The position numbers were made by a program, and so were the translations under genes. Source: Amoebophrya sp. A120 (taxonomy: Eukaryota > Protista > Dinoflagellata). From it: a stretch of DNA of 64,000 bases. Below, piece after piece: positions 601-59,800 of the stretch. Numbering within the stretch: the first letter of the stretch is position 1; the number at the start of each line of letters is the position of its first letter. Location of the stretch: assembly GCA_905178155.1 (NCBI GenBank), contig CAJINV010000018.1, positions 1,178,501 to 1,242,500 of the forward strand. The letters run 5' to 3'. The notes beneath the pieces are model-generated. The model made no database searches and was not told the origin of the DNA. It worked only from the letters and a program-made list of their open reading frames with translations.

Positions 601-3600
601 CTTCTCGACGTTGTCGCCGCCTCTTCTCTGCATCTATGGTAAGAAAAAATCCCCCCTCCCCATACCAAAGCGGGATACTTCAGAAAAGTTGTGATGCAGA
701 TTTGAGGCCATAGATCGTCTCTGTATTGCCAGAAGGCAAATCCAAAGACCTGGCCGCGTTCTGCCGGCAATTTGTAATGCTGTATGGCCTACGGAGGATA
801 TGCCTGCCTTGCTAAGTGCCTACGCAAAAACGCCCCTACTCCGGCTTTGTATCTGTTTGCAGTCCTCTACTGCAAGACAAATCCGATTTGTGTACACAAA
901 ACCCGCATCACAGATTTCCATTTCGATATGGGGAGGGGGGATTTTTCCTTTTGATAGCATCTGTGCTCTCTTCTTTTTCAAGTTCTCCTGCTCCGTTTCC
1001 AGCCTCCTTTGGATGATCTGCGCCCGGTCCAGGCGTATCAACTGCAAATATGTTGGGGTCCTGCCTCTGGAACGCTGCAACTTCTCATGCTACGTCTGGA
1101 TCGTGCAAGACTCTGTGTTGCAAGATTGCCACAAGTGGTTAACTTTTGACGAAATTGAAAGCGGCATATAATTTCCTTTGTGGGATAAGCAGGCATGATA
1201 GAGATCTCACAGAATCTGTCACACTAGGTGGTCCTGCATCCCAGACCTCATGAGCCATGGAAAACCTGCATGGCAAGTTTTCCACTCTTCCAGACCACCC
1301 AGACATATTTGCATCTGATAGGGAGTCGTTTGCGGAAGTCGTTCTTGCACTTTTTGGCGACAAACTCGGCCTGTAGGGCGTCCAACGCTTTTCCTTGGAA
1401 GTCGTATCAACTGTAAAAGTGTCTGGGTCTGGAACATTCCGACACTTGTCATGCACGTTTTGCATGAGCCCTGATGTCTGTGATGCATGCCCTAGCATCA
1501 CAGATTTTTTCGGAGCTTCTTGATGCCTATTCCGCATGACAAATGCCCTCTCCGCGTCGCAAAAAATACATTCCTTTTGGTACTCATGCAATACAGATTT
1601 TTCTGGAATCCAAATGCAGCATCACAAGTTCCAACCTTCCAGACCCAGACATTTTTACATTCGATAAGTCGACCAGATACCTGATTTATACACAGCAGTT
1701 TGTTTACCTCTAATACATTCTTCGACGAACAAAGCACTTAGCAACATCACACTTCGATTCATTTTCTTCTTCATGTCGATGCACAAGTAGTAGCGAGTAG
1801 TTAAGTGCAACTAACTAAGAATTCAGGCACTAAGATGAAAACGAACGCAAGATCATGATGCGCTGCACCAGAAAAAAAGCAACTAAAACAACACGTTGCG
1901 CCAACTATAATGACCTACATCTGTCACATAAATCAATTCTGTACCTGGCCAAGAAGTCCACCTTGCTGTCTGGCTGGTCGGTTGGCATGCTATCATCCTC
2001 TTTTTTGGTGACTGCCTGCACCTGCTCCTCCTCTTCTGCCCTGGTCCGGGCGATGTCGTATACGGACTTTTCGAGCACGGGCTCCTTCTCGATACCCGGC
2101 TCCTTTTTACGGTGCACCTGTGGTTCAGATTTTTTAAGTTTTTCATTTTCATCATCTCGAGATGATGAAAACAAAGAGACCTAGAACGCCCAGCGCTAGT
2201 TGTACTTCTGGTAGTGCAAGGACACAGGACGTTGGAAAATCGATCTTTCTACTAGGTTGTCGAAGCAAGTAAGTTGTCAAAAGTAAAAATGTGGTCTGGG
2301 TCTGGGAACTTGTGATGCTGGGTGGCGTCTCATGATGACGCTACAAATCCTGGCTCAGCATGACAAGTTTCTGAGCTCCTAGGTGTTGCCTATTCTGCAT
2401 GACAAACTGCGCTTCTGCATCACAGAAAAACGGAGCTCTTGGGTAACGTGCATGACAGATTTAAGAGTCATGCCAGACAAGCATGACAAACATGAACTCT
2501 TCCAGACCCAGACATTTTTACAGTTGATATAAGTAGACCACCTTGATCAAATTTTCTTCTTTTCTCCGCGCCCCATACTCCCCGTAGATCTTTGACACCA
2601 CGTCCTGTATGACCCGCTCAAACGTTACAATCTCAAACCTTACAATAGAATCTGGGTTTTGTATTGCATGATGAGCATGACAGACTCGGACAGCATTCCA
2701 CTTTCTGCAATACAAATTTCGCCAGATTGTAGTGCGGATTGGGACTCCAGAACTTGTCATGCGCAAGCCTATGGGAGTAAGCTAGGCAGTGCACTTCTTG
2801 CAACACAAATTCCAGATTCGATTGTAACGTGTGAGATTGTAACACCTGAGCAGGCTATATCCTGAAAGGAAACCTTCGAGTTCTTCTCGAGTTGAATCAA
2901 ATCCCGCAGTTGATTGTCTGACAGCCTCCCCGTCGGCGCGGACAGGGGCCGCAGCTGGTTGTCTTCCTTGATGTAGACCAGCGACTCGTCGACGATCTTC
3001 GACCGGGGGCCGTGCAGGTCAGCCCGGATTTTCCCCTCCGACACGTAGAACACAATTTTGTGGTAGTCCGGCGTTCCTTATCCTGCGCGACAACTTTTTC
3101 ACCTACAGTTGCCCTGCCAGTTCGCTTCTTGTGCAGTTGCACATCAAAGTACTTACTTAATAGGGCATTGCAAGCCAGTAAAAAATGCTTTTTCGAAGAT
3201 GACATCTACATGCTTTGTGGTTGCGTCGCTTGGAGCAAGTAGGTCGAGCCGCCACGACCTGTGATCATGCAAAAAAAGATAACAAAGCACTTTATTTTCT
3301 ACATCTCTGACTGATAATCTGACTGTCAGAAACGAATGGCATTCGGCTGGGATCGTGAGTTGTCGTGTCTGATATTGGTTCCTGCGCGAATCCGGGCTTC
3401 ATTTCCTGCTCCCCTCTCCTGCTGTATTTCAGCGTCATCTTGATGATGGCTAGTTCACCTGTGATAGGGGACGAAATTTCAATTTGTTGGTAAGAACTAC
3501 GTAGTTGCATGACCATTTGTCGTTTCGCTCTGGAGCAGCTGCATTCACTCCGGATACAGTCACCCAAGCAAAAAAGGTACAAAGCTAATCATCTTAGTAA

Positions 3601-6600
3601 ACACCGATCCCCTCAACGTGTATTGTGGGCTGCTTCCCGGCTTGCAAGGGGTCGGTGGGCCCGAGTTTGACGGAGTGGTAGATCAATCTGTCGTCGCGCG
3701 CTTGGAAGTATTCACAGACTTTTTTTCCCACTTCTTCCGTCGTTTTCTCTAGCCCGTCGAGCCTGGAACTCGGGTAATACGTCAGAATCCGCTTGGAGCC
3801 AAATACCTGGGGCGGGGTTAGTGAATTTGCTGGATTTCAACATCACACGATTCATCTTGCGCAAAGAGATTACGTCTCTGTAGTAAAAAGACAGTTGACG
3901 CGGATCGTGGCATCGAAAGCACTTCTTCACTTTATTGCTGGTCAACGAGATGCAACAATTTTCACAGCACCGGACGAAAAATGAATCCCGCCAAAAATCT
4001 TCTACTTACCTCTTCGATTTCTTTGAGGGCGTTACTTCTGCCGGTGAGAAACGACTCGACCGCTCTGTTCTCAAAGGGGTGCTTCAGCCTCCTGACGAGC
4101 TTGTCGTTTCGAAACTGGAAGAGCTCCTCCACCAGCTTCGGGCGCATTCTCCTCACGTCCTTGAACAGGGTCACCCGTCGGACCACCCCGTCCACCTGCG
4201 TGTAGGGGGAATACCGCTCGACTTTTGATTTCATGTAGTACGACACCTTTTCGCCGTGGTAGTACCGCGCTTGAAAATCCGCTGGCGTGATTTCTGTACA
4301 AAGAGTTTATTTTTTCCAAATAGATTTTGAAAGTCATTTAATTTCATGTTAGTTCTTACAGCCTCTTCTTCTGCCAGAAGCAGAGGCTGTAAAACCATTG
4401 AGTTGTTATTTTTGTAGCTGTATGCTCCCAGACTTGGAGCATACAGCTACAAAAATAACAAACCCACTGCATAGATCTCCTACAGCTCAGTTCTCCTGCA
4501 CTCATATAGTATACCAATCTTTTTGCTCCAGCTCGGTGGGTTGTCCAGGTACTGGACTTTTTCCTTGTTTTTGTCCGCCTGTATCCCACAGAAAAAGCCA
4601 GGCAAGGCATATTTGTAACGCAAAAAAAACACACAGAAAAGTCGCGCACTGCGTAACGGAACAGCATGGTATGTGCTCGCCCATAGCAATTTTTTTGTTT
4701 AGTTATATATGCCCTGCTTGCTTTTTTCTGTATGATAGCCTGGTCCCCGGCGTCGCCGGCACCGAGGTCACCGCCCTCCTCGTCCTCCTTGGCTTCCTCC
4801 GAGTCTCCCCCCTCATCGCCCGCTTGATCCGCAGTGACCAGCACGTACTCGTTATCCCATGTAAAAACGTCCCCACCCCATAGTCAAGATGGAGAATCGG
4901 CTAGACACATGCATCCACAAGGTTTGGCTGTTTTGCATGACAAGTTTGGCACCGTAGTGTAGTGCTGTTTGAGGTAGTGAAGCAGCATGACAGATCTAGT
5001 ATATCATGCTTATTGGAGCATGACAAACTCCAAAACACGACTAGAAAATGCTTCTCAGGGGGCTCCGCATGAGAAACATTTTCAGCATGCAGACTTGCAT
5101 GACAACTCTGGGGTGGGGACGTTTTTAAATACGATACTCGTAAAACCTGGGATCGTTCAGGTTCAGCGAGATTTCGGACGCGGGAATCTCGCTCTGCATG
5201 TTCATATCCTATGTAAAAACGTCCCCACACTGATGTAGTCAAGATGGGGACTCGGCTAGACAAATCCACAAGTTTTGGCTGTTTTGCATGACAAATCTGG
5301 ACTCATGTTGCAGAAGTGCTGTTTGAGCTAGCTCAGCAGCATCACAGATCTAGTATATCATGCTGATTGGAGCATGACAAATTCCAAAACACAAATGGAA
5401 AATGCTTCTCATGGGGCTCCGCATGAGAAACATTGTCAGCATGCAGATTTGCATGACAACTCTGGGGTGGGGACGTTTTCACGCAGGATAGTTCACCCAC
5501 AGGTTTTTGTGGTTCCAGACCAGGTCGACCTTGAGATACGGGGAGTCCGCCACTTTGTAACACCTGCCGGTGGAGCACTCGATGTAGATATCTTCTGTCA
5601 TTCCCCGCAGCCCCTGCCGAATCAGCACCCAGCAGTGCACGCGCTGGCCGGCATCCTCGGGCATGTCCTAATAAAAAAACATTCATTTAATATTGATGTT
5701 CTTCACTCCCCTAAGATTCCATTCTCGACAAATAAGAAAGATAGGAACCACAACTTATATGAGAGATTTCACATAATTCCACAATGAGCAGAGGCAAACC
5801 AACCTAGTTAGGAGCGCTATTTCAGTTATAACCTGCTCAGGTGTTACAATCTCAAACGTTACAATAGAATGAATTTGTGTTGCAAGAAGTGCATGATCTA
5901 CCCTACTCCCACAGGATTACGCATGACAAGTTCTGGAGTCCCAATCCGCAATACAATCTGGCGAAATTTGTATTGCAGAAAGTGGAATGCTGTCCGAGTC
6001 TGTCACGTTGATCATGCAAGACAAGTCTCAGATTCTATTGTAACGCTTGAGATTGTAACGTTTGAGCAGGTCATATCAGTCTCAAAAATATTTTACCTCT
6101 TCGTCGTCGCTGTCACTGCACATGGCCTCGTCATTATCGCAAGAAAAAAGTGTTACAGTTACACATTGTGTTGCAAGACCGGCAACACAGACGACCTTTC
6201 TCATGCAGGAAATGCTTGGGAGCCTCGTTTCCTTCCTGTTTTCCCTTATGATCTTCGCATTACAAGTCTTCTCTGCCACACAGAGAAAATTTGTGATGCA
6301 GAAACTCCAACAAATGTGTAACTGTAACACTTTTTTCTCACGATAGTCATACTTCCTTTTTGCCTCAAGCCTCTCCTTATCCGTCTGCTCCGTTATAAAA
6401 CCCGACTTGTTGAAGGGCGGGCGTTTCGGGATGCCCTCTGTCTTCGGTGCGGACTTGGAGCTAGAGCTGCTGGACGAAGACTATCAAATGCAAACATGTA
6501 TGGGTCTGGATAGTTGTGATGCAAATCTGTGAATGGTAGGCGCACTCGTAGACGCAGCCAAGCATGACAAGTTTTCGTTCTACTTGCTCTGTCTTTCGTT

Positions 6601-9303
6601 TTGCGCATGAAAAACTGTGTTCTTGCATGGCAGGCAAGAGGATCTTTTCCTGCTCATGCATCACAGACTGAGTTTTAAGAGTCAACATGCCAGCCGAGCA
6701 TGAGAAACTTGCACTCATCTTGTTCCAGAGGACCCAGACATATTTGCAATGCATAAAGACCCGGAGGGAACGATCTCGTTTCGCTCGTCCAACACCGCCA
6801 GTTCGACGGCGCAGTGCTCCATAGTTTCACACTTCGTAGCGATAAACCTTTTGTTTTTTCACTTGTTGCATAATTTTCTAATCCTTCTCCATCCTAAATA
6901 AATGATGTTCTTGACGTGGCTGATTCATTGCTTGGTGCAACACAAACATTCCATATTCAAATCCTAAATCATGCATATTATACACTCGGTACATCAAAAT
7001 CTACTTTCTTAATACCGTGGCGCAAACCCGGAAACGCAGTAGGCGTCGTACCCAACTCCGATCAGCATCGAACATAGGAATATGCAATGCAAACATCCGC
7101 TTTTCCGCCCCGGGCGGTGAAAAAATAAAACAAGCTCATTTACTAGCTTGCATCCACATACTTTTAAACACCAGCATCTGGTGGATATGTTGACAAAAGG
7201 ACCTCCGAGTCAACGCCTGCTGTGCTGTCGTTCGCCTAAGCACGACATCTCGCTACCGTGAGGGTCCTCATCCTTTTGTGATTTTGGTGATGTACATGTA
7301 CAACTACCAGCATGACAATTTTCAGCGCACGGGTTGTAGTTCAACTTGAGAGTACAGATATCCATCTTGCATAGATATTATGCTAAAGTCGAAGGATATC
7401 CAGGCAAAAAACTGTGTAAGTGTAAGTTTCTTTGAGGAATAGCATCACAAGTTTGCTCTGCATAACACAGAAAACCTGTCATGCGTGGCTAGTACGTGAA
7501 AACACGCACGAAAATTGCCTCTGATGCATGTCCAGCATGACAAGTGTAACAGTTTTGCATTTTCTGCAACACAAACTTACACTTACACAGTTTTTTTCTT
7601 GGATAAAGGAGTCCCCGGCTCGCCAGTCCAAGACCGTGGTTGGACTCGGGATTACCTTGGGGTACTTGTTATCAAATGCAAAAATGTCTGGGTCTGGAAG
7701 GGTGCGAACTTGTGACGCATACTTGGATCACACAAAAATCTGTTATGCTTAGACAGCAAAGGGCGTTCCTTTTCCTGTCGCCGAAGGAAGGCGTTTGTCA
7801 TGCGGATTAAGCATTGGGAAACCGTCTCAAAACCTGTGACGCTAGGCCTTGCATGGCACACCTTGCTTCTGTGTCAAGCAGACACAGCATCACAAACCTC
7901 AGCAATTTTCCAGACCCAGACATATTTGCAATCCATACTTGTCCACGGGAATCAATTCCTCGTAGTTCAGTCGGTCCGCCACGTAGTCCGCGCAGGTCTG
8001 GTACTCATACAGTTCTTGGTACGGCAAGTGCGTGGGTTTTATGGTCGTGGGCAGAAATTTCGGCACGTCGCACTCGTTCGGGGGACACAGGAAAAGAAAA
8101 CGGTTCCCGTACACCTGGTGAGAAAGTTGATTTTCCACCTCCTACCTAGTCGGAGAGAAGATTTTAATAGTCTTTACTTCCACGACCTCGACCCCCGTAA
8201 GTAGCTGCGATAAAGAAAAAGAACCGAAGATAATAATTGATTTTGATACTTAAATCGACCTGGATAAAATTACCTGTCACAACCCACACATGGCATGCAA
8301 GCAACTCTATTCGTACAACGGGTGGTCGGATTGCCAACAAGAAACGCAAGTGCTGGCATGAGTCGATGAAATAGTTGCATGAAGTGAAACAAGTCAAAGT
8401 GTAAAAAAGCTGTAGATGAAGCAACTTCCAATATAATTCCATACCGACAGGAACTGCTGCTCGAATTCTGACACATGCTGCAGCAGCAGGTCTTCTTTTG
8501 GGGAATTGGACTTGTAACTCGGTGGTATGTTTTCCGTCGTGCTGTCCCGAAACCGACGTGACCGCACCTCCTTCTGGTTCACCCGGGCTTATTATCCGGT
8601 GGAAAAGCAGTACAGCACCATAGCAGACAGAGACTTTCATGCCTGTTCTTACGGTTCTTCTTCTTTTCCTGTCTACGTGTTGACAACTGGGGGTTCTTGT
8701 TGCGATGGCAACAAGAAGTCGTGGTCGATGTTTTTTTCATTAAAAAAATATGGACAATGAACAACAAAAATCAATGTAAATTTGCCGTTGATGGTCGTGC
8801 TCCTGAACTACATGCCAAATTATCGGAGACCGAAAAAACCGCATCGCAAGGATCATCTTCTCGGCACAATAGAACTCGTTCTGCAGTAGTGCTGTCCACC
8901 AAAAGTTTTTCCGGTCGATATTTTTGCCTTCATCATTTCCACGGCATCGGCCTCTTGTTTCTTCGCCGCTTCTATCAAATGCAAATATCCCTGGATGTCT
9001 GGAAGGTTGCAACTTGTGATCATGCTGTCCTTGGATTGTTCTAAAAAATCTGAATTGCATGAAAAGCAATAGGGGTCCAGTTTGTGCTTCGCGGGGAGGG
9101 CATTTGTCATGCGGTATAGAAGGCATCAGGAAGCCCTCAAAAAATCTGTGATGCTAGGGCATACAATACTGGCGTCAGGGGTCTTGCAAAATATGCATGA
9201 CAGTCTTCCAGACCCAGACATTTTTGCAATCAATAGCTTCTGCCGCGGCCGCCGGGTCCGCGGCGGCGCCCTCCGCGGGAGGCGGTGCGGCCGGGGCGGA
9301 CAT
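601..9303 (-). CDS. DRC7: Dynein regulatory complex subunit 7 (CCDC135); multi-exon, 3' end runs off the window
   Basis: Joined exons give FLCPPNECDVPKFLPTTIKPT, PSPTTVLDWRAGDSFDFS, LCSMLIGVGYDAYCVSGFAP, RVHCWVLI, VWNHKNLWVNMQ, LDNPPSW, SVYDIAR and FRKRLLDRAQIIQRRLE; ATG at 9303; GT-AG introns plus 14 IEs. Confidence 0.88.
635..956. mobile_element. IE, family C (poly-C/poly-G subterminal TIR), in DRC7 CDS
   Basis: TAT..ATA ends, GCATC direct repeat; removal gives AQMQRRG. Confidence 0.9.
1036..1320. mobile_element. IE, family A (TIR TATCAAATGCAAAAATGTCTGGGTCTGGAA), in DRC7 CDS
   Basis: Diverged repeat AGGCG/GGGAG; removal gives KRLLDRAQ. Confidence 0.88.
1405..1666. mobile_element. IE, family A, in DRC7 CDS
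   Basis: AGTCG direct repeat; removal gives YLVDFQGK. Confidence 0.9.
2275..2529. mobile_element. Family A element inside a canonical GT-AG intron of DRC7
   Basis: TAAGT direct repeat; left end TGT; near-identical to 35152-35403. Confidence 0.85.
2608..2859. mobile_element. IE, family D (TIR TATRACCYGCTCA..GTTACAATCTCA), in DRC7 CDS
   Basis: TCCTG direct repeat; removal gives SFQDVVSK. Confidence 0.9.
4853..5136. mobile_element. IE, family B (TIR TATCCTGWGTAAAAACGTCCCCACCCCA), in DRC7 CDS
   Basis: CTCGT direct repeat; removal gives RFYEYVL. Confidence 0.9.
5205..5490. mobile_element. IE, family B, in DRC7 CDS
   Basis: GTTCA direct repeat; removal gives LWVNMQ. Confidence 0.92.
5827..6075. 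mobile_element. Family D element inside a canonical intron of DRC7
   Basis: TCAGT direct repeat; long TIR. Confidence 0.87.
6135..6345. mobile_element. IE, family G, in DRC7 CDS
   Basis: GTCAT direct repeat; removal gives RKYDEAM. Confidence 0.9.
6482..6755. mobile_element. IE, family A, in DRC7 CDS
   Basis: AAGAC direct repeat; frame restored. Confidence 0.9.
7081..7373. mobile_element. Degenerate IE in DRC7 CDS
   Basis: Only a 7-bp TIR (TATGCAA..TTGCATA); removing 298 nt gives DFSI(I/F)LCSML. Confidence 0.8.
7397..7605. mobile_element. IE, family G, in DRC7 CDS
   Basis: AAGGA direct repeat; removal gives GDSFDF. Confidence 0.9.
7670..7937. mobile_element. IE, family A, in DRC7 CDS
   Basis: CTTGT direct repeat; removal gives VDKYPKVIPSP. 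Confidence 0.9.
8973..9235. mobile_element. IE, family A, in DRC7 CDS
   Basis: GCTTC direct repeat; removal gives AAEAAKKQ. Confidence 0.88.
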
Positions 9304-32807: not shown

Positions 32808-32837
32808 GGTTTGTTTGTTTGTTTGTTTGTTTGTTTG
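32808..32837. repeat. (GTTT)n microsatellite upstream of COPA
   Basis: About 7 consecutive GTTT units. Confidence 0.9.
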
Positions 32838-47213: not shown

Positions 47214-47600
47214 TTATACCACAGTGTCATCCGTGGACGACAAGGTCCTGATGGAACCCCCGCCCATGCCGTTCGGTAAAGCGGCCGCATTCTGCTGCAT
47301 CCTCAAGTCGTACGCGAGATTCTCCCGCGCAATGTGGTCGGCCAAGGGATCGCTCTGCAGCCGGTCGGCCTCGTTGGCACCGAAGACCAAGTTCACGAAA
47401 CTCCCGTTTGGCACGGCGAAGGCTCGATTGTCACAGGAAGCGGGCAAGAACTCCTCCTTCGCGACTCCCTGATCCAGGATAAGGAACGACTTCTGGCGCG
47501 AACTCGGGACCGCGGTGGCACGCGCAAAATCGTCCTTCAAATCGCGCACCGTGTATCGGGGCGTCATCTGTAACTCAAAAGCTGTTCGGTGATCGTTATT
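47214..47600 (-). CDS. Last exon of a ubiquitin-like-domain protein; upstream exons probably extend to ~48340
   Basis: FELQMTPRYTVRDLKDDFARATAVPSSRQKSFLI, a UBL-type pattern. Confidence 0.5.
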   Translation of the reverse strand, partial: NNDHRTAFELQMTPRYTVRDLKDDFARATAVPSSRQKSFLILDQGVAKEEFLPASCDNRAFAVPNGSFVNLVFGANEADRLQSDPLADHIARENLAYDLRMQQNAAALPNGMGGGSIRTLSSTDDTVV

Positions 47601-48224: not shown

Positions 48225-48710
48225 TCATTGTGGATCTTGTGATCGCCCCCGGACGAAAATCCGGACAGAAAAAACAAGGAACCAACTTGGGCGTCTGGAT
48301 CGCTGTAGACAGGCTTCTTGGCCACCTTTCTCGCTGTGTCCAACTCCGACAGTCAAAAAAAAAAACGTGTCGTGCCTGACCGACTGCTGACCGAAATTAT
48401 CTTGTGACAGATATCCAACCGATCTCTGGACTTACTTTTGCGACCATGAGTTGTGTAGCTTCAAAGAATAGAACAAAATCGCGAACGCAAACGAAACACT
48501 CTTCTAATTGCGGGCGTACAAGGTGTCATGAGCGTATCTTACAACTTTGAAAAAGTTTATTGCGGGATGATTATGTCGTGCCTGGCTTCATATTCATAGG
48601 TGAGAAGACCATGCGCCTCATCGAATAAATGGAGCGTCTGCAGAATCTGCGCATCTTTAAAGCACCTTCAGTACAAGCAACAGACCTGCAGCTTCCCGTA
48701 CTTTTTTTCT

Positions 48711-51700
48711 TCACGCTGTATCTTCTATCATCTTCAAAATCATTTGCACATCCCGAACGCAGCCCATGATAATCGGGCATCGGTCGTGGATTTTCTCTGG
48801 ATTCACCTCCAAGATCCGTCCGCACTTCCCGCGAAACATGCCGGTATTGGTATTGTTAGGAAAAATCTTCACTCCCCATGTCGAAAAGGAAATTTGTGAT
48901 GCTAAAACAACCGCACCGACATTGCCATTGTCCATTATCACTGGGGAAGCAAGCCTCCGCAGGCGCTGGAGGGGCATAGGGTCAGCTTCGTATTGCAGGA
49001 AGGCCGCATCGCGGCCAGATCGCCAGCCTAGGTAGGGGCGTTTGTGTCTAGTTGCTCAGCATTGCAAACGGCTGCCCTTTAGGCCAAAAAGCATGACAGA
49101 TGGCTTCCACAATGGGACGGAAGCTTCTGCCCTTGTCTTCTTGCAAGACAGATGCGATCTGTGACCACAAATCAGCAACCCGAATTTTTGGAAGCGTGCC
49201 TTTTCAATATGGGGAGGGGTGATTTTTCCCGACAATAATTGGCCAACCCACCGGCTTGTTCCGTGATCAAGGCCATCGGGAAGCCCTCGTACAAGATATC
49301 ACAATGAAAACTGCCCCCATGATCCCAAACTTGGCAGCATTTGCATTGCAAACCTTTCCAATAGAAACATTCCCCGTCTTACATATCTCAGCATCACAAA
49401 TTTTCCATGCTGAATAGCTCAAATTTGTCTTGCGAAGGACCCCAACAGTGGCCGGATCTGTCATGCAGAAGGCACCTTGCGGTTGCGCACCCAGATTCTG
49501 CATCAGGAAGGCTCGCAATCCTTTCATGCAAGACAAAAAGCTTTCATTTGGAAACTTTGCATGACAAACTTCTGCAAATTCCGGGGTGGGAGCATTTTTC
49601 ATTGCAGTACAAGACCCGGAGTTTCCCTTTGGTCGATTTCTGGTCCGCGGGGTACAGGAAAACGCCGCCGTTATTACAATGAAAAATACCCCCACGACCC
49701 CCGATCTTGGGCGCATTTGTCTTGCAAATCTTTCCATATGAAACATGCGCCATCTTGCATCTATCAGCATCACAGATTTCCGGTCGTGAATTATAGCAAG
49801 AATTTGCATTGCGAAAGATCCCAGCAAGAGCGGCGCTTGTCATGCAGGCGCTGCGATACACGCCTAGACTCTGCATCAGAAAGATTCATACTCCTTTCAT
49901 GCATGACACAAAGTTTTCATTTGGACGCTTCGCATCACAAACTGTTGCAACTTTGGAGGTGGGGACATTTTTCATTGTAATAGCCGTAGAGGAGACTTCG
50001 GTGGACGTCGGATACCATGGACCCCACGTACCGCGCGGTGTAATCGTTTTCCTTGCAGTAGTTCACAAAATCATGGATCCCTTTCTCCTGTCCTGTGCAA
50101 AAGTATCGGGCTCGTACTGGAGTACAGGCGCAATGTTGCTGCACGACATAAGCAAGACGACTCTGATAGTAGATATGGTCCTACCATTACAAATTGCACT
50201 GTTTTTAATTTTCCTGTACTCCGATAAAAACTCATGCTAGCACTTTACTTTTGCAATCCATACATCCCAGTGCTTGGAGTTGCCTTCGTTGCACGAGTAG
50301 ATCTTCTTCCCGCCGTTCGAAGGTATTTTGATGTTTTCGATAAACATGAACTCTCCGATGGAGGGGTCCAATTGGTACCGCTGCACGCCGGTAATAGTTT
50401 CCGGCGCGGATATTACCAACTCGCAACCGGCACCGTACCTGATGAAAGTTGTGCATTATTTTTGCGGTCGTGATTTTATCTGATTCTGATCATGCGGTTT
50501 TGATTTGCATACAAAATTCTGATGTTTTCATCATTCTGTGTCTGTTCACAAAGCGATGTCGTGCATGGCGAAAGCAGAAGTAGGTACATTGAATATCCCG
50601 CAGCCACGATTTCCGTTCCGGGTCGCAAAATGTCGTCCACCGTCGCTTTTCCGCTCATGGGTATCTATCCGCCAGAAAAGAGTTTGCGATCGCGCAGTTT
50701 GTGATGCGTATATCTTGATGGCTAGGCGAAGGGCCAAAGGTTGTGTTTCTTGCATGTTGTAGCGTGTATTAGAATGCTAGAAAGTTTTGCACGAAGCCTT
50801 CGTTTATTTCTACGCTCCTCTTCTTTCCGCATGACAAGTTTGCCACGATGTTGGTACTAATTTTCTGTGTGATAGTGACAGCCTCTTGTAGATGCTGAAA
50901 ATCGAACCGACAGAACCGGTATGCAATGCAAATTTACGTCTGCATCTCCAAGGAGTACACATGCGCATTTCACATCGCACAAAAAGCATCATGTATCAGC
51001 GGCAACAAGGGTCCTTTTCTTGTCCCGGAAGGAATGCATTTGTATTTCTCATGCGGCGTAACCAGGGCTGCAACCAAGCATCATATGAGAGAAGTCCTCA
51101 CCTTTTTAGAAACAGTAGCTATCGCCGACTAGAACCCTCGGAGCGGACCTTGCCAGAGCCAGCCATTCAAAAACTGCATGACAAAGAACCCTCGCAGGAG
51201 TGCTGTTCCAGGCCCAGACATATTTGCAGTTGATAAACGTTACAGTCGATGTTTGAACTTCCGTCCAGGGGATCGAAGGCGACGCAGAATATGCATTGCA
51301 AACATGTCTGGGTCTGAAAGGATGCGAACTTGTCATGCTAAGTCTGGATGGTACTTACAAAAATTTGTGTTGCATGACTACCAAAAGCTGTCCAGTTTTG
51401 AACAAGTTTAGAGGCAGTTTGTCACGCAGGATAGGCATGATAGGGACGTCGCAGAACCTGTCATGCTAGGTCCTACATTCCAAACCTCATGGGGCATGGA
51501 AAATATGCATGAGAAGTTTGCACTCTTCCAGACCCAGACATTTTTGCAATGCATACAGAAACAGGCCCCGCTATTTCCGTCTTCTCCAGAAGATGCGGTA
51601 GTACTGCTATTGTTGTTCTCCCCATGAACGACGATGGCGTCTTTTTCCTCTTATGAGAGTGTCAGGATTGAAGTCGACAGAGTTGTAATGCATAAAATCG

Positions 51701-53143
51701 ATACCAGTTGGAAGCCATATTTCCAAGCGGTGCATGACAAATTTCGGCACCGTCTAAATCCAGTCTGTCATGCTGTTTAGGGACAGAAAGTGTCTTTTGT
51801 CATGCTACATTAGTAGCTCTATCGCAGACCCAAAACAGGCTTACAGCCGGCCTCACTTGCCATCCCTGCAAGAGACACCCTTCATGCCTTGCCACTTATG
51901 CATGAGAAATTATTTCAACGTTGACGATTTCAGTCCTGACGCTTCCGTACCTCTTCCGAGACGAGTAAGCAGCACACGCCCGACTGCTTCAGAGAGTGGA
52001 CCCAGATCTCGTTGGCCAGCACATCCAGCTTCTTCACGTCGTCGCCACTGGCGTTCGAGTCCCCGGCCTGGCCGTACAGGTTGGAAATTCCGGCGCGGCG
52101 GATGGCGTGGGCGACCACTTTACAGGCGGCGTATGGAGGGGACAGGAAATAATGTCTTCCTTCGATCATGCAAAAAACACCTCTGTCATCAAAAAAAGTT
52201 ATCCTTGCCCTTCACAGCACCAGCAGGGCTGCTCTCGCGACAATTATGTACTTTACCGCGAACGTTGTTCCACAGCGCCTGCGGTAAGCGCACTCGCAAG
52301 CCGCTCCTAAGCGTCGGCGCACGCCTGAGTGATTTTTCGCGCGACTTCGGCTAAAGTCATTCGCGCCAGTTAAGCTGCAGTGCGAGCGTTGCACTACTTA
52401 AGCCGAAGTGCTGCTTCCTGCAGCTCCGGTGCTTTGCAAGACTCAGAGCAAGCTTAAGTGTTTCGCACGACTTAGACTAAGTAGTGCACTTCGTCGGTCG
52501 TCTTAAGTCGTTCGCACTACTTAAGCCAAAGTGCTTCGCGAACCTCTTAAGTCGTGCGCACGACTTAAGCCAAGGTGCTTCGCGAGCCTCTTAAGTCGGT
52601 CGCACGACTTAAGCCAAGGTGCTTCGTGAGCCTTAAGTCGTTCGCACGACTTAGGCGGTGATGCTTCGCGCGAGCCCATCTAAAGTAATTCGCGCGAGTC
52701 ATCCCCATGCTGTGGCTTTTCAAAAGCAGACTGCATCACAATATGGCACTTATTTCCTTCATTTGGTGCAATAGCTGCCAGACAAAGCAATACGAACCGC
52801 CATTTTTCGCCGAGGCACGGTAGCTGAAGTCATTGTCATTATTTTTATTTCCTGATTCATAAATTCTGGATCGCGTTCATCAGTAGCGCCAGTTTGTTGT
52901 CGCCCGTGCACGCAAAAGTTTGCGTGACATTTTTTGACGTGGCTTATGCAGAGGCATGCTTTGGGCGTGGAAACAAAAGTTGTCTAGCTGTGCATTAGAA
53001 CCACGAAGCCAAGATGCTGGTGTCATGCTGTAGAACAAGCAGCAATAGAAATTTCGTTCTCCAGCCACAAAAGCTCACTTTGATACCGCTCGGGACAGAA
53101 AGACCGCATCGTCGGGGTAAAACGTGCCTGCCGGGCGCGACAT
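48711..53143 (-). CDS. FBP: Fructose-1,6-bisphosphatase class I; 10 IEs plus one GT-AG intron
   Basis: [90 protein letters not shown] and GKLRVLYEGFPMA. Confidence 0.96.
48851..49237. mobile_element. IE, family C, in FBPase CDS
   Basis: ATTGG direct repeat; removal gives AGGLANTG. Confidence 0.9.
49297..49609. mobile_element. IE, family H (TIR TATYACAATGAAAA), in FBPase CDS
   Basis: CAAGA direct repeat; removal gives KLRVLYEG. Confidence 0.92.
49672..49982. mobile_element. IE, family H, in FBPase CDS
   Basis: GCCGT direct repeat; removal gives LLYGGVF. Confidence 0.92.
50089..50262. mobile_element. IE, family E (diverged), in FBPase CDS
   Basis: TCTCC/CATCC repeat; left end TGT; removal gives KHWDKGI. 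Confidence 0.82.
50666..50874. mobile_element. IE, family G-like (diverged), in FBPase CDS
   Basis: GTATC/GTGAC repeat; removal gives YKRLSPMSG. Confidence 0.78.
50920..51235. mobile_element. IE, family A (diverged), in FBPase CDS
   Basis: ACCGG/AACGT repeat; removal gives NIDCNVSVG. Confidence 0.85.
51290..51555. mobile_element. IE, family A, in FBPase CDS
   Basis: CAGAA direct repeat; removal gives [10 protein letters not shown]. Confidence 0.92.
51652..51949. mobile_element. IE, family F, in FBPase CDS
   Basis: CCTCT direct repeat; removal gives VSEEEKDAI. Confidence 0.9.
52132..52861. mobile_element. Old IE with no surviving direct repeat, carrying a nested palindromic array
   Basis: TATG..AAATAATG.C imperfect TIR; removing it plus 5 nt joins NAIQ to ACKVV. 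Confidence 0.78.
52250..52700. repeat. Tandem ~44-bp palindromic repeat (CTTAAGTCG.TCGCACGACTTAAGCCAAGGTGCTTCGCGAGCCT)
   Basis: About 4 well-preserved units at 52500-52680 plus degenerate flanking units. Confidence 0.8.
52945..53085. mobile_element. Diverged short IE in the first FBPase exon
   Basis: TAT..ATA ends, TGGCT/CCGCT repeat; frame restored. Confidence 0.7.
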
Positions 53144-53852: not shown

Positions 53853-56800
53853 CTACCGCATGCCCTTCAACTTGATCACTTCCGGCCCGGCCGCCCCCGC
53901 GCCGCTGCTCCCGCCCTTCCCGGCACTGCTATTCGCGTTGGTGTAACGCTCCATAATCTGGGCCATCCGCGCCCGTCGATCCATCTCTTCCCGTTCCGCA
54001 GAGGCAGGTTGATGCGCCGCCGGAATGGTATGGCCGCTGCTTGTTCCTTCGGCAGCCGAGCTCCACTTCCCGCCCTTGCCTTCCCGGCGGCCGGTCCGCT
54101 CTCGGTCTCGGGCGGTGTCTCGGTCGCGCTCGCTTCCCCGCGTGCTGCCACCGCCGGCTTCCGGCAGCGTCGAGAGAATGGCCTCGTCCTCGTACATGCG
54201 CTTGCTCTCGTTTCCAAGGTTGGACCGCTGGCACGCTAGCATGGCTTTGTAGCCCTGCGGCTTCGTGGCGTAGTCCCGGCCCACCGCAACAGCGCCAGTG
54301 CGATCTGGTGAGTCGTTTTGCGGATTGTTGTGTAGGTAAACCGCATGACAAAATCCATACATGTTGTATTTTCTGCATGACAAACAACGCAAAAATCATA
54401 TCATCAAATAGAAGTAGTACAGTGTTCAATGTATTCCTCCACGTATCTCTTGATCTCTTTTTCGTCGCCCTTGGATTTCGTCAGATCCTCATCGTAATAG
54501 CGGTAATTGTTTCTCCGCCGCCCGTATCAAATGCAAAAATGTCTGGGTCTGGAGGGATCCGAACTTGTGATGCGTGTTTCGGATCCTACAAAAATCTGTG
54601 ATGCATAACGTGCAAAAGGTGCCCACTTCTGACCATGCTGAGAGGCCATTTCTCATGCAGAACACGCATCACCAAGGAGCTGCAGAACCTGTGATGCTAG
54701 GCCCTGCATTGCAGACGTGGGGGAGCTTGGAAAAACTGCATCACAAATCTCGGGAGCTCCCAGACCCAGACACTTTTGCATTTGATAGGCCGCGCGATCG
54801 GGATCTGCGACTCCTGCCGTCCCCGCGCCGCGAACGGCGGTCTCGCGCATCGTGGCCGCTCTCTCCCGGACCGGCGTGTTCTGAGCCCGAGTCGGAGTCC
54901 GAATCTCTGTCCTCCTCTCTATGCAATACAAATTTATTCCCGTGCATGTACCAACTATAGCCGCCGGGGCGGGGGTAGTGAGGTCGTGGGCGTTTTTTTG
55001 CCGGCCGCAGCCTTGGCCGCGGCTTTGCTTTTTATGGGCTCGCCATACCACCGTGAGTAACGCTATGCCGCACGGTATGGCGGCCACTTGGGAAACGTCG
55101 CAAATTTTGGCACATTTCCAAAATTCCTTTCCGAAAGCCAGCCCCGGCGCGATGGGGCCGATCCGGGTGCCACGGGGGGCGCCCAAAAAGCGAAGAAAAA
55201 CCGGGCCCATAGCATGCGGATTGGCTTTGCGCGTCTGGTGCGCTTTTTATTTTTCGCGTTTTTATTTTTCACGCCGGCGCTTTTTGCAAAGCTTCCCAGG
55301 CTCTAAAACCGGCGAAAAGGCGGCCGCTTTCGCGGCCGCCCAAAATGCTCCGAAATCGCGGCCGCGCCATGCTGTTTCGCTGTTCTGATTTTGGGCGCGT
55401 TTTTCGCGCGCCCCTTTTTGGGCGCCCCAAATCGCCAGAAACCAAGGCAGCGGGCGCCTCAGAAGGGCGCCCCTTTTGCCGGCTCCCCTGCGTCGTTTTA
55501 TCAAGTGCGAATCGATAGTTTTCGACCGGGCTTGTTTGCCGCAAACGCCCCGGCCGCTTGATAAGTGAAAACTTTTTATGCTCAAAAACACTTCCGGCCG
55601 CTTCAAAACTGCCGGCCGTTTTTCAGGGTAGCTGTCAAAAAAACTCCCTGGTTAGAACCGTTCGGTGACCTCACTACATACAACACGCATCACAAATTTT
55701 ACCAATTTGGAGCGTGAAACTTGTCGTGCTAAACTAGGATCGAAGCCAAGTTTCGTCATGCAGAGACCGCATCTGTACGTGTATGGGAAATTTACTGTGG
55801 ATACTCTCTGTATTGAATCACCAACCCAAGGCTGACCAGCTGAATAGGCTCGGTCAAATCGATCTCTTGTTGTTGATCGAGAGCTCCTCCTGCGCCTGCC
55901 CTGGTTTGCTGGTGCGCCGTGGTACTTGTATTCTGCAGCTGCTCCGGTACAGCTGAGGCTGATGTCAACATGGCCGTTGCATTATTCGTCGCAAAACCTC
56001 CAGTCGCGGGTGATATTCCAACAGCCGAAATAGTTGTACCTCCACGCACATTGTTCCCCGTTCCGACGAGGTTCTTCTCGGTAGTACCCGCATTCAACAT
56101 CATCGCAGCCATCTGCTTTTTCTTTCGCGATGCCGCGCCAGCCATGAATTTCCCGGCGAGTGGTTTCCGCGTCGCTTTTTGCAACTGCTGGTGCGCGACG
56201 GCCGCGGCCGCATGGGGTGGCAGAGAGTTGGACCCATCTAAATGGCCGCCGCTGCCGCTGGGGATGAAAACAGGCTTAGAAGCAGCTCCATTAAGCGGCG
56301 CGACTTCGGTGACCTTGATTGCAATTTCCGCATTTTTGTCCTCTTTCGTTGTCGTGTTGACACCACCATCGTCTACCTCCATTGCAGCGCCTTCCTCCGA
56401 CTGACCCGCTTTGTTTTTTTCCTCGCTTTCCTTCACATCCGCGCCGTCCTGCGGGTTATTTTCCTGCTCGCGGCCCTCGATAATATTGCCGTCGTTCTCT
56501 TTCGTTTTCGCATCTTCACCTGCATTTTTGTCCATATTATCTAGTACAACTTTGTCGTGGTCCTTCTTCTTTTTCCTTTTCTTTCTCTCCAGTTGCGCCG
56601 CGAGAATCTCTATGGATTGCAAAAGTGTCTGGGTCTGGAAGATTGCCAGATTTGTCATGTAGGTTTTCCGTGACCCATGAGGTCTGGTATGTAGGACACA
56701 GCATGACAGATTCTGCGAGACCTTTCTAATGCCTATCCTGCATGAGAAACTGCCTCTCAATTAGGTCAAAGGTGCACAACTTTTGGCAATCATGCAACAC

Positions 56801-59800
56801 AGCTTTTTGCCTGATTCAGATTTAGCATGACAAGTTGCAATCTTCAAGACCCAGACATTTTTGCAGTTGATAATCTCTTTCTCGTCCCACAGGCGGATTT
56901 TCAGCCGGATATTCGAGAGGGTTTATGCATTGCAAAAGTATCGCACTCACATAAGTGCCAGACTTGCATGACAAATCTGGATTTCTTAGGTAATTCAGCA
57001 TGACAAATTCCATTTCTGATCTTGAGCAAATTTGTAATGCTGTTCATACTTAGCACGATACTTTTGCAATGCATAGCGTCGAGCCGTAGCTGATGCCAAT
57101 CACTTCCCCCCGTCTCCACTCAAACGTCGTGTTCACGTACGGGTTATGAAATGCAAAAATGTCTGGGTCTGGAAACTTGTGATGCTAAAATGTGCATGAT
57201 GAGAACACTTCCGAACGCAGTCCAGCATGACAACTTCCCAAAACGCTTTCTCATAGGCAATCCGCATGAGAAACTGCGTTTTTGCATGACAAAAGAGGCT
57301 GCGACTTTTGTTGGTTATGCAATACGGATTTTCTAGGTATGGAAAGCTAGCATTACAAGTTTCAACCTTCCAGACCCAGACATTTTTACAATCCATACGG
57401 GTTGCCGGGGGTGCCAAAAACGCACTCGACAAACGCTTCGATTTGGTTGCCGTACTGGTACACGCCGTCTTCCTTCTCCAGCAAATTCTCATTCTGCACG
57501 TAGCGTTCCCGACACACGTCCAGCATCGCCATCAACGGGGCTTTCTTCAAGCGAAACGCGGCGGCGGCGAGCCGGGGTAGCAGTACCACATCTTGGTACT
57601 TGTCCGTATTGACCAACTTTTCCGCGAACTCCCCGATCGTCAAGGTCCGCCCCCGCCGGTAGTGCGACCGGCTGTTCTGCTGCTGGAAATTGTGGTCCTC
57701 GTTCTCGGAGGAAGAGACCTGCTGTGCGGAAGAATGGTGCACCGCGGGCACGTGGTCCAAGACGCCAGCGTTTAATATTCCCGCTGCTCCACCCGGTCCG
57801 CCTCCTGCCAGAATCCCGCTCGTGTTTGTTGTTCCAACCCCGCCAGCACCGGGAACGGCAGCTCCGGAAGTAGATGTTGTCCCTACTGCTTCTCCCGCCG
57901 TTGTGCCTGCTACGGTGCCGCCGCTATTATTCCCCGAATTATTTCTCCGCACCGGGACGATCTTTTATGACAGTGCACAACTCCCCCTCCCCCTCATTTG
58001 TATAGCATCAACGGCAATACAAGCATCAGCAAGGATGCCGGTTTTGCATGACAAATTTGCGCTGGAGTGTAGTGCTATTTGGGCTACCAGAACTTGTCAC
58101 GCAACCAGTGGTGCCAAGAGGCAAAGGGTGGATTGGGTATTTTGCATGACAAATGAGGGAGAGGGGGAGTTGTGCACTGTCATATCTTTTGCACGTCCAA
58201 TAGGTATGGTTTGATCCACTCGAAGAACTTTTTCCCGTCGAAAACGAACCGGATCATCAGCAGAGCAACGCACCGGACAAACGGGTTACTGTGCTCCAGC
58301 AAATTGGTCAGCTCCTCCGTGCTCGGCCGCAGTTGCAACAGCCGGTAGCCTATGCATTGCAAAAGTACTATCGCAGTCGTACTAATCGCAGTCATGCATG
58401 ACAGGTCTATGATTTAAGGGAAAGCACCATTACAAATTGCACTCTTTTTCTTGGAAAAACTTGTATTGCAATTTTCACTAGTACGATACTTTTGCAATGC
58501 GTATATACGCAACACAGGTAGGAGCTGCAGTCTTGGTTCGAGGAAAATCTTTGGTAGGGCTCGTAGTGTATGCATTGCAAATATGTCTGGGTCCTGGAAG
58601 GATACAACTTGTGATGCTACGTCTGGACACTAGATAAAATCTGTATTGCGTGAAGAGCAAAATAGATGCAGTTTTCGCTACGCGGAGAGGGCATAATTTC
58701 TCATGCGGTATGAGCATCAGAAAGCTAGCGCCGAATCTGTGATGCTAAGGCATGCATCACAGACGTCATGAGTCATGGAGAATATGCATGACAAACCTGG
58801 CAATCTTCCCGACGCCAGACATTTTTGCAGTTGATATAGTCGTCGACGAATTGGTCGACTTGCTGGACCAACTCGGCCACGGAACCGCAGTTCTGCTTCA
58901 AATCTTGAAAATACTTCGCCTTGCTCACGTGGCCTCTGGTGAGGTCGGACACGTTGAAGGTCGTGTCGTTGGTATACTCTTTTGCCGGGTCGAGGAGGTC
59001 CGCGGGTTTCGCGGCCGAGGGGAGGTTTTGGCCCGCGCGTACAGCCCCGCCGAGCGGGTTCGCGGCGCCGGCGAGCCTGTGAAGGTCGGTTTGTGTGAAG
59101 ATGAGTAGATACTATAGACATAACTCTTTCTCTTTTCAGTACAAATGAAGTCTCGCCACTTTTTCCGTATCTGTTTTTCCTCAAAGGCTAGTGCATCCAT
59201 TTTGATGATGATGACTGTGATGATGCTAGAACCTCCTAGTACAACACACTGCTAGGAGTAGTAGTGCACAACTTCTCTACTTGTTTCCCTACCGCAAAAA
59301 GTCTCATCGACTATATAGTAGTACAGCTGCGCGTTGGCTGTTGCACTAGCTGAAGTGTTCACACTAGTAACCTGGGCTCCTGCAGCTGCAGTGGGAAGCA
59401 CCGCGCCGAGTTGCTGGGCCAAGAGCTGCCGTTGTTGCATCAGCTGCATGCTGAGTTGCGGATTTTGCATCATCTGTTGCATCATTGCCATCTGCTGCAT
59501 CTGCATCATCTGTGCCGCGGCCAGCTGCGGATTGCTATTCATCTGCGCGGCTGCAAGTTGCGCTTGCATCAGCTGCGGCGCTTGTTGGGGCGGTCCACCA
59601 GCTGCTGGAGGTGCTCCCATCATCATGCCGGGTAGCTGCAACCCCGCGGCGGCTGGTTGCGGTAGTTGTGGTGCCATCATCGGATTATTGTGGTTCACAC
59701 CAGTTGCAGCAATTCCCGCTGCGCTTGTAGTTCCCGGTGCCATCGGCGGGCCGATCGCCGGAGTCGCTGCTGCTGCGGTTCCTGATCCCCCCGCGGGTTG

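What the first reader, a model, noticed from the sequence alone, without database searches (positions are those of the whole stretch)
635..58836. 66 transposon-like elements from ~10 TIR families act as precisely removable non-GT-AG introns under one shared rule
Seen: the elements run TAT...ATA (a few single-base variants) and carry a family-specific TIR and a 5-nt flanking duplication. Deleting the element plus 5 nt restores conserved motifs in essential genes, including COPA GHLDYIRT, LDQSIRIWD and FNLALEYG, FBPase KLRVLYEG and DRC7 LWVNMQ. COPA has 13, FBPase 10, PRP38 8 and DRC7 12 exonic copies. At sites such as 28095 and 27756, no position of the sliding junction gives GT-AG, GC-AG or AT-AC. 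Known: introner elements with inverted and direct repeats are described in Amoebophrya, but I know of no resolved removal mechanism. Inference: one host machinery reads a family-independent signal rather than splice dinucleotides.
Basis: partly seen in the sequence, partly recalled or inferred. Interest (0 to 1): 0.92.

Follow-up and report, generated by a model that had tools for sequence, protein, structure and literature searches.

The report
Amoebophrya transposon introns share one register
In the marine parasite Amoebophrya A120, small transposon copies sitting inside genes are cut cleanly out of the messenger RNA without the usual GT-AG signals; this was already published, but here the cut fits one fixed position across families, likely set by the element ends and likely made by a modified spliceosome.

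Summary
The window is Amoebophrya sp. A120 (exons 100% identical to its annotated COPA and DRC7), whose TAT-ended introners were published in 2021. I count 70 elements (9 multi-copy families, 12 single copies); 47 keep a perfect 5-nt duplication. Spliced contigs skip exactly element + 5 nt at 16 of 16 element joints shown; a DNA-like run shows none of the FBPase joints. 63 of 70 allow no GT-AG, GC-AG or AT-AC.

New: copies whose two duplications have diverged fix the cut that the paper calls unknown. All 37 junctions tested against RNA or annotated proteins fit one register: intron = N-TAT...ATA-NNNN. Seven exclude a cut one base later, four one base earlier. This puts TAT at +2 to +4, like the host's GTAY donors, while +1, -1 and -2 are free. 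Both orientations are removed, and so are copies with almost no duplication left. Likely mechanism: a U1-less spliceosome reading the element ends (0.5); rival: a Euglena- or SOS-like nuclease-ligase (0.35). Only one exact RNA junction excludes the later cut, and it is GT-AG. No transposase found.

The parts
635..8935 (-). DRC7 gene (part in window): 14 element introns inside the annotated protein, 2 elements inside GT-AG introns
   Evidence: exon 100% identical to A120 protein P0003; Pfam DRC7; junction peptides
23590..32431 (-). COPA gene: 13 element introns and 9 GT-AG introns
   Evidence: 1256 of 1256 residues of P0007; one 4717-nt spliced contig whose length fits removal of all
45633..47400 (-). 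gene of unknown family (partial protein P0006) with 4 tested element introns
   Evidence: no Pfam hit; no RNA joint shown
48700..53139 (-). FBPase gene: 10 element introns and 1 GT-AG intron
   Evidence: 362-aa ORF; 150 homologues align; 6 element joints in RNA contigs
54306..59077 (-). PRP38-domain gene with 8 elements (54525, 54920, 56611, 56924, 57145, 57966, 58351, 58569)
635..956 (.). element, family 3, perfect 5-nt duplication
1036..1320 (.). element, family 1, duplication 3/5; excludes register 5 (CT...CC intron)
   Evidence: RLLDR in P0003, P0004, P0005
3079..3374 (.). decayed single-copy element, duplication 3/5; registers 3-5
7081..7373 (.). decayed element, duplication 1/5; excludes register 5
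   Evidence: FSIILCS in P0003 and P0004
8593..8920 (.). decayed element, duplication 3/5, ends not predicted to pair; excludes register 5
13326..13632 (.). element, family 4; GT-AG in register 4
23801..24121 (.). element, family 3, duplication 4/5; RNA registers 2-5
   Evidence: joint 23795>24122
24487..24748 (.). element, family 1; RNA joint
   Evidence: 24480>24748
25054..25315 (.). element, family 1; RNA joint
   Evidence: 25047>25315
25717..25978 (.). element, family 1; RNA joint; opposite orientation to 27756
   Evidence: 25711>25979
26439..26581 (.). element, family 5, duplication 4/5; RNA registers 1-5
   Evidence: 26433>26582
26636..26888 (.). element, family 1; RNA registers 0-5
   Evidence: 26630>26889
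27756..28019 (.). element, family 1; RNA joint; no canonical pair possible
   Evidence: 27750>28020
28095..28355 (.). element, family 1; RNA joint; no canonical pair possible
   Evidence: 28089>28356
28640..28963 (.). element, family 3, duplication 3/5; RNA registers 3-5
   Evidence: 28634>28964
29065..29343 (.). element, family 2, duplication 4/5; RNA excludes register 3 (TT...AC intron)
   Evidence: 29058>29343
29926..30230 (.). element, family 4, in COPA
   Evidence: protein; contig length
31101..31363 (.). element, family 1, in COPA LDQSIRIWD
31696..31948 (.). element, family 1, in COPA GHLDYIRT
34408..34976 (.). element, family 1, with a 310-nt unique insert
36925..37183 (.). element with decayed 5' end (TGT); GT-AG in register 4
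   Evidence: RNA contig pieces stop at 36919
45959..46219 (.). element, family 1, duplication 4/5; excludes register 5 (CT...GG)
   Evidence: P0006
46358..46619 (.). element, family 1, duplication 3/5; excludes register 5 (AT...TC)
   Evidence: P0006
46686..46976 (.). decayed element, duplication 1/5; only register 4 fits (GT...AT)
   Evidence: P0006
48851..49237 (.). element, family 3; RNA joint
   Evidence: 48845>49238
49297..49609 (.). element, family 9, TAC 5' end; RNA joint
   Evidence: 49288>49607
49672..49982 (.). element, family 9; RNA joint
   Evidence: 49666>49983
50089..50262 (.). decayed element; RNA fixes register 4 exactly; both intron-side duplication bases differ so as to give GT-AG
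   Evidence: 50084>50264, no slide
50666..50874 (.). single-copy element, duplication 3/5; RNA registers 3-5
   Evidence: 50660>50875
50920..51235 (.). single-copy element, duplication 3/5, ends not predicted to pair; RNA excludes register 3 (TT...GG)
   Evidence: 50913>51235
51652..51949 (.). element, family 4, TAC 5' end; GT-AG in register 4
52132..52861 (.). 730-nt decayed element in FBPase, duplication 0/5; register not settled
52945..53085 (.). decayed element in FBPase, duplication 3/5
54920..55803 (.). element, family 8, 884 nt with a GC-rich insert

Best explanation
These are Amoebophrya A120 introners, non-autonomous TAT...ATA transposon copies with a 5-nt target duplication that are removed from the RNA as element plus 5 nt, and every junction tested fits one register (intron = N-TAT...ATA-NNNN), likely because a U1-less spliceosome reads the element ends instead of GT-AG. 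Shown: removal in RNA contigs, both orientations, several families, one compatible register. Inferred: insertion by an integrase-like DDE transposase encoded elsewhere (TA/TG termini, 5-nt duplication); TAT serves as +2 to +4 of a donor site (host donors are GTAY in 9 of 15), with +1 free; the acceptor is set 4 nt after ATA rather than by AG; end pairing probably helps bring the sites together but long pairing is not required. Because the two ends are mirror images, an insertion in either direction carries both signals and the mRNA regains exactly one copy of the target.
For: RNA contigs skip element + 5 nt at 16 of 16 element joints shown, the same contigs skip GT-AG introns, and the registers they allow intersect at 4 only. 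31 of 31 junctions inside three annotated A120 proteins allow register 4; 6 exclude 5 and 2 exclude 3; orthologues P0004/P0005 carry the register-4 residue at 1036, and P0004 at 7081 and 8593. All 9 'predominant' A120 non-canonical site classes in Table S4 of PMC7789003 start NT, and all 9 of A25 start TT. In 326 strand-assigned elements the sense 5' end tolerates TAC (14 versus 2 at the 3' end, p=0.004), keeps +2 T (1 versus 8 changes, p=0.04), and a changed 5' end has G at +1 in 12 of 21 against 88 of 305 (p=0.012). Four elements are GT-AG in this same register, three with a decayed end. Family 1 lies 13 and 15 times in the two directions. U2, U4, U5, U6 and 83 of 89 spliceosomal proteins are reported in A120, U1 snRNA was not found (PMC7789003 passages).
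Against: No lariat, branch point or protein factor was observed. Only one RNA joint excludes register 5 (50089) and it is GT-AG, so it could be a special case; the other six rest on annotated proteins built from transcript alignments, three of them backed by orthologues. The mirror control for G at +1 is also raised (7 of 16 versus 80 of 310, p=0.15), the end tests were post hoc, and strand calls are imperfect (56 of 64 right per element in the window). No selection for GT or AG in the duplications (GT 80 versus mirror 67; AG 19 versus 14 of 262). No G-U wobble excess in the repeats (288 versus 280). A codon-score test of the register on 40 outside elements gave nothing. At 52132 the bulk of homologues favour L or T (T = register 2) and only 1 match has N (registers 3-4), although that one is the closest by identity. 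In Euglena a similar paired-triplet code is thought not to be spliceosomal (PMC12501133 Discussion).
Confidence: 0.5

Rival explanations
1. A spliceosome-independent nuclease and ligase recognises the paired ends and cuts 1 nt before TAT and 4 nt after ATA, as proposed for Euglena non-conventional introns or, less precisely, as in SOS splicing with RTCB.
For: +1, -1 and -2 are free; the geometry resembles Euglena's N3-CDG / CH'G-N5-6 code (abstract of PMC12501133); repeat positions 11-20 are predicted paired in 58 of 66 elements; U1 snRNA not found; canonical introns of the window lack ATA at -7 to -5.
Against: TAT falls exactly on the canonical donor positions and GT-AG forms arise in the same register; 5'/3' asymmetry favours host-like TAC donors; 50920 is removed although its ends are not predicted to pair; no wobble excess; SOS splicing cuts at many sites and leaves indels (PMC12779559 passages), unlike here.
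Confidence: 0.35
2. There is no single rule: the cut lies anywhere within the duplication or differs between families and copies, and the shared register is an accident of few informative sites.
For: 47 of 70 copies have a perfect duplication and cannot place the cut; PMC7789003 calls the sites variable, 1-5 nt from the repeat; contigs hide minor isoforms; 52132 is unsettled.
Against: 37 of 37 tested junctions allow register 4, across families 1, 2, 3, 4, 5, 6, 7, 9 and singletons; 7 exclude 5 and 4 exclude 3.
Confidence: 0.1
3. The skips are not RNA splicing: reverse-transcriptase template switching at hairpin plus direct repeat, DNA-level excision, or transcripts from element-free gene copies.
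For: Hairpin plus short direct repeat is the classic setting for template switching (own knowledge); the runs are only guessed to be RNA and are contigs.
Against: Joints occur where only 0-2 letters are shared (50089, 28640, 29065, 50666, 50920); the genes code for full conserved proteins only after removal; DNA-like run X1 runs unbroken through 49896-51288 with no other letters and shows 0 of the 7 FBPase joints, though it may be the window's own source.
Confidence: 0.03

Closest known systems
Amoebophrya sp. A120 introner elements (Farhat et al. 2021, PMC7789003)
   Same: Same organism; repeat starts TAT + 7 nt + AAA; 5-bp direct repeat shown in its Fig. S19 legend; non-canonical, RNA-supported introns; many families.
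   Different: The paper calls the splice sites variable and the border unknown, and sees no clear signature; here one register and a +2 to +4 / -7 to -5 signal fit all tested sites, including copies with no duplication left. Its figures could not be seen and may already hint at this.
Euglena non-conventional introns (PMC12501133; review PMC11282704)
   Same: A paired triplet at fixed distances from both cuts, free terminal bases, longer spacer at the 3' end, suspected MITE origin.
   Different: Triplet CAG/CTG with spacers 3 and 5-6 versus TAT/ATA with 1 and 4; Euglena prefers a purine after the intron and rarely mixes systems; circles are reported there, unknown here.
Fritillaria borealis non-canonical introns (via PMC11282704 and PMC13326754)
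   Same: MITE-derived non-GT-AG introns handled by an altered U2-type spliceosome.
   Different: There a few dinucleotide classes dominate (AG-AC, AG-AT) and U1 is kept; here all 4 x 14 observed end pairs occur and U1 was not found.
SOS splicing (PMC12779559)
   Same: Host removes inverted-repeat transposons from mRNA without GT-AG, for unrelated families.
   Different: SOS cuts at many sites and leaves indels; here removal restores exactly one target copy at 16 of 16 joints.
IS3EU/GingerRoot, IS481EU and Ginger DNA transposons (PMC10045372; PMC12130899)
   Same: TA..TA or TNT..AYA termini, short duplications; an A120 introner family with integrase-like homology and inverted repeats is reported.
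   Different: IS3EU duplications are usually 6 bp and IS481EU about 4, 15 or 25 bp; here 5. No transposase was found, so no assignment.

Membership tests
Amoebophrya A120 introner elements | Occur in the A120 genome | tested here: met
   three window exons match proteins named Amoebophrya sp. A120 at 100, 98 and 100%
Amoebophrya A120 introner elements | Inverted repeat starting TAT, 7 variable bases, then at least AAA | tested here: met
   positions 11-13 are A in 51-62 of 64 ends of each side; families 4 and 6 lack the full A run
Amoebophrya A120 introner elements | 3-5 nt direct repeat at the borders | tested here: met
   47 of 70 perfect 5-nt; 252 of 372 outside
Amoebophrya A120 introner elements | Repeated, RNA-supported non-canonical introns | tested here: met
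   9 multi-copy families; 16 of 16 joints
Spliceosomal (U2-type) introns | GT/GC-AG ends | tested here: not met
   63 of 70 allow no canonical pair
Spliceosomal (U2-type) introns | Lariat with a branch adenosine; need for U2/U6 | not testable with these tools
   only contigs cover the genes; raw-read runs X9, X10 did not lie on exons
Spliceosomal (U2-type) introns | Donor core T+2, A+3 as in the host's own GT-AG introns | tested here: met
Euglena non-conventional introns | N3-CDG ... CH'G-N5-6 | R signature | tested here: not met
   signature here is N-TAT ... ATA-N4; first exon base after the intron is A 11, C 15, G 19, T 19 of 64
SOS splicing | Many cut sites, indels left in the mRNA | tested here: not met
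   exact element + 5 at 16 of 16 major forms; minor forms are invisible in contigs
SOS splicing | Needs AKAP17A, CAAP1, RTCB (names recalled except RTCB) | not testable with these tools
   no genome held
IS3EU/GingerRoot transposons | TA..TA termini | tested here: met
   feature
IS3EU/GingerRoot transposons | 6-bp duplication | tested here: not met
   0 of 372 perfect 6-nt, 252 perfect 5-nt
IS3EU/GingerRoot transposons | Cognate DDE transposase between the same repeats | tested here: inconclusive
   none in the window or 557 kb of outside loci; 4 long ORFs near candidate long elements gave no transposase family

The most novel reading that the evidence does not exclude
A120 runs a second, symmetric splice code, N-UAY...AUA-NNNN, on its U2/U6 spliceosome without U1: neither end dinucleotide is read, the acceptor is counted 4 nt from AUA (the A at -7 possibly being the branch point), and any copy of this transposon group, in either direction, becomes an exact, silent intron at once and stays one after its repeats and duplication have decayed.
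Probability: 0.35. Interest if true: 0.85.

Novelty: already known. Interest (0 to 1): 0.5.

Why it matters
The elements are published, but how and even where they are cut was left open. A fixed register turns tens of thousands of ambiguous junctions into one rule, lets A120 genes be annotated exactly, and says where to look for a branch point and which bases to mutate. If the spliceosome does it, this is a natural case of splicing with free +1, -1 and -2 bases and no U1; if not, it is a third precise non-spliceosomal route beside Euglena's and SOS splicing.

Tried and rejected
No whole genome is held, so no genome-wide count, no search for U1, RTCB or a transposase. No RNA holder listed on record; runs X3, X5, X6 are guessed RNA and were judged by what they skip. 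Raw-read runs X9 and X10 lay only on short element ends with other flanks: not informative. The gene at 45.6-47.4 kb showed no RNA joint (15 of 25 joints shown), so its three informative sites rest on the annotated protein. Shared inner motif GCATNAC (210 hits in 18.7 kb of elements, 26 in the other 45.3 kb) as branch point: not supported, it is symmetric (166 sense versus 186 mirror within 25-65 nt) and absent from 13 of 15 canonical introns; a transposase-binding repeat is as likely. Selection for RNA pairing: no wobble excess. Selection for GT or AG in duplications: none. End triplets change less than duplications, but not less in coding than in non-coding flanks (30 of 524 versus 7 of 178 ends, p=0.44), so I do not count it. 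Codon-score register test on outside loci: null. Viral contigs: 0 matches to the main repeat. Long elements with a transposase: none. A first threading script gave wrong register ranges and was replaced; only its intron lengths were used. Dropped before counts: 3 overlapping candidates of 61; of 421 outside elements 262 passed the strand and coding filters; 4 intronic or non-coding window elements left out of the 326. Earlier-findings look-ups gave nothing relevant. Roy et al. 2023 is not held.


Full report
Observation. Repeat scans and my own searches found 64 elements with TAT...ATA ends, an imperfect terminal inverted repeat of about 20-25 nt and a flanking 5-nt duplication. Threading annotated proteins added 4 decayed ones and the FBPase frame 2 more: 70 in all, median 264 nt, 19.6 kb. 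Duplication match is 5/5 in 47, 4/5 in 9, 3/5 in 11, 1/5 in 2, 0/5 in 1; a strict search gives 41 in the window and 0 in each of 20 shuffles. Element + 5 is a multiple of three in only 27 of 70. Families: F1 28 copies (1036, 1405, 2275, 6482, 7670, 8973, 11490, 24487, 25054, 25717, 26636, 27756, 28095, 31101, 31696, 34408, 35152, 35463, 37220, 38164, 45294, 45959, 46358, 51290, 54525, 56611, 57145, 58569); F2 7 (4853, 5205, 14934, 18270, 29065, 34069, 45633); F3 5 (635, 11862, 23801, 28640, 48851); F4 4 (10793, 13326, 29926, 51652); F5 4 (26439, 48075, 56924, 58351); F6 3 (2608, 5827, 17978); F7 3 (6135, 7397, 13046); F8 2 (41027, 54920); F9 2 (49297, 49672); singletons 3079, 4582, 7081, 8593, 36925, 46686, 50089, 50666, 50920, 57966; 52132 and 52945 were not clustered. 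The genes I reconstructed all lie on the minus strand.

Organism. Window exons match proteins named Amoebophrya sp. A120: DRC7 100%, an unnamed-family protein 98% over an exon query that included one intron-side residue, COPA 100%. Farhat et al. 2021 (PMC7789003; I saw the abstract, passages, sections 11, 12, 16 and 25 and supplement passages, not the figures) describe A120 introners whose repeat starts TAT + 7 nt + AAA, with 3-5 nt direct repeats, RNA support, 1954 families, no U1 snRNA found, splice sites 'variable' and the border 'unknown'. So the system is known.

Removal from RNA. Contigs of runs guessed to be RNA skip both GT-AG introns and elements. All 16 element joints shown (10 in COPA among 15 of 62 joints shown; 6 in FBPase among 15 of 25 shown) equal element + 5 nt. 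One 4717-nt contig spans COPA; its coordinates fit removal of all 13 elements and 9 introns (3147 expected, 3147 seen for the lower part; its start maps to 32838, where the tool notes a cut). Run X1, which behaves as DNA, crosses 49896-51288 unbroken and has none of the 7 FBPase joints; it may be the window's source. Family 1 lies 13 times one way and 15 the other, and copies of both directions are skipped in the same contig. 63 of 70 have no GT-AG, GC-AG or AT-AC among equivalent junctions, including 27756 and 28095.

The register. Where the two duplication copies differ, the mRNA tells which copy gave each base. Call the register k if the first k bases come from the upstream copy. RNA: 29065 and 50920 allow 4-6, 28640 and 50666 allow 3-5, 50089 allows only 4; the intersection of all 16 is 4. 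Proteins: 31 of the 68 elements then catalogued fall inside P0003, P0006 or P0007; all 31 allow 4, six exclude 5 (1036, 7081, 8593, 45959, 46358, 46686) and two exclude 3 (29065, 46686). These models were built from transcript alignments, so they are not fully independent; the orthologues P0004 and P0005 carry the register-4 residue at 1036, and P0004 at 7081 and 8593. Together 37 of 37 distinct elements allow 4, seven exclude 5, four exclude 3. The intron is then N-TAT...ATA-NNNN. 7081 and 46686 keep only 1 of 5 duplicated bases, so the duplication itself is not needed. Weak point: the only RNA joint that excludes 5 is GT-AG. Unsettled: 52132, where most homologues have L or T (T would be register 2) and one, the closest by identity (75%), has N as registers 3-4 give. 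A codon-score test on 40 outside elements was null. Table S4 of the paper lists nine main A120 classes, all starting NT, and nine A25 classes, all starting TT, which fits, though aligner preference may add to it.

What is read. In register 4 the first two bases are GT 21, CT 17, TT 17, AT 15 and the last two take 16 forms. A scan of metagenome contigs with the F1 end gave 136 loci (134 held, 557 kb) with the same families at up to 96% identity and no match to window exons; 252 of 372 end pairs have a perfect 5-nt duplication, 1 a 4-nt, 0 a 6-nt. I assigned strands with a codon model (56 of 64 right per element in the window; locus sums used) and kept 262 of 421, plus 64 window elements. There is no selection for GT or AG. 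The ends are asymmetric: TAC 14 at the 5' end versus 2 at the 3' end (p=0.004); first T changed 1 versus 8 (p=0.04); G at +1 in 12 of 21 changed 5' ends versus 88 of 305 (p=0.012), but the mirror control is 7 of 16 versus 80 of 310 (p=0.15). These tests are post hoc. Host GT-AG donors in the window have A at +3 in 13 of 15 and are GTAY in 9 of 15. Four elements are GT-AG in register 4 (13326, 36925, 50089, 51652), three with a decayed end; at 50089 both bases that differ from the mRNA lie on the intron side and make the GT and the AG. Folding predicts the repeat paired in 58 of 66, but not in 50920, 8593 or most of 46686, and G-U-compatible mismatches are not in excess (288 versus 280). All multi-copy families share an inner GCATNAC motif about 45 nt from each end, symmetric and so not shown to be a branch point.

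Mechanism. Shown: exact removal, both directions, one compatible register. Inferred: a transposase from elsewhere inserts the elements (termini recall IS3EU and IS481EU, but those make 6 or 4 bp duplications, passages of PMC10045372; an A120 introner family with integrase-like homology is reported, passages of PMC12130899; I found no transposase). For removal I favour a U1-less U2-type spliceosome (0.5): TAT sits on donor positions +2 to +4, U at +4 is accepted by U6 in some settings (PMC13326754 section 29), canonical forms arise in the same register, and Fritillaria shows that a spliceosome can adapt (review PMC11282704 section 6). The acceptor would be counted from ATA; that the A at -7 is a branch point is my guess, from its low change rate (3 of 326) and from recalled cases of fixed branch-to-acceptor distance in other protists. 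The rival (0.35) is a separate nuclease-ligase, as suggested for Euglena's paired-triplet code (PMC12501133 abstract and Discussion); SOS splicing is imprecise and fits less (PMC12779559 passages). Other introners take splice sites from the duplication in fixed ways (PMC9860276 passages), but those sites are canonical.

Novelty. Elements, motif, 5-bp repeat and RNA support are in print. Searches for a resolved register or mechanism returned the 2021 paper, reviews and surveys only; the library lacks most subscription papers, Roy et al. 2023 among them, and the 2021 figures S19-S25 and Fig. [quoted passage not shown] Verdict: real, already known system, with a probably new and testable splice register. 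Interest 0.5.

Noticed in passing
window 62607-63929 (+): 441-residue stop-free frame on the opposite strand to the genes, no Pfam hit, ending in a Cys/His-rich stretch; looks like a retroelement gag by eye only.
   Followed up: partly
window 1-340: Tandem, partly palindromic repeats of about 60 nt inside the last visible DRC7 intron.
   Followed up: no
window 430-520 and 52430-52690: Arrays of CTTAAG-containing repeats; the second lies inside the 730-nt FBPase intron.
   Followed up: no
window 16990-17515: Region with a 62-nt perfect palindrome at 17333-17394 followed by telomere-like CCCTAAA units; perhaps another mobile element.
   Followed up: no
window 34466-34775: 310-nt unique insert inside a family-1 element whose ends are intact.
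   Followed up: partly
window 54961-55670: GC-rich insert inside a family-8 element; 271 nt of it recur in L042 at 81%.
   Followed up: partly
window 28486-28583: A 98-nt GT-AG intron of COPA carries three copies of the elements' inner motif and matches many outside loci over about 55 nt: possibly an element remnant turned canonical.
   Followed up: partly
window 25054-25138 and 29924-29984: Raw RNA run X9 holds short stretches like element ends with other flanks and lies on no exon: related elements expressed in another strain or species.
   Followed up: no
window 41027-41177 and 48075-48224: Elements outside any coding frame that I found; whether they are transcribed or spliced is open.
   Followed up: no
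L001-L136: The 80 loci listed all come from one assembly prefix and carry the same families, about 420 elements in 557 kb; L042 seems to hold an RNA polymerase II large-subunit exon (by eye, recalled motif).
   Followed up: partly
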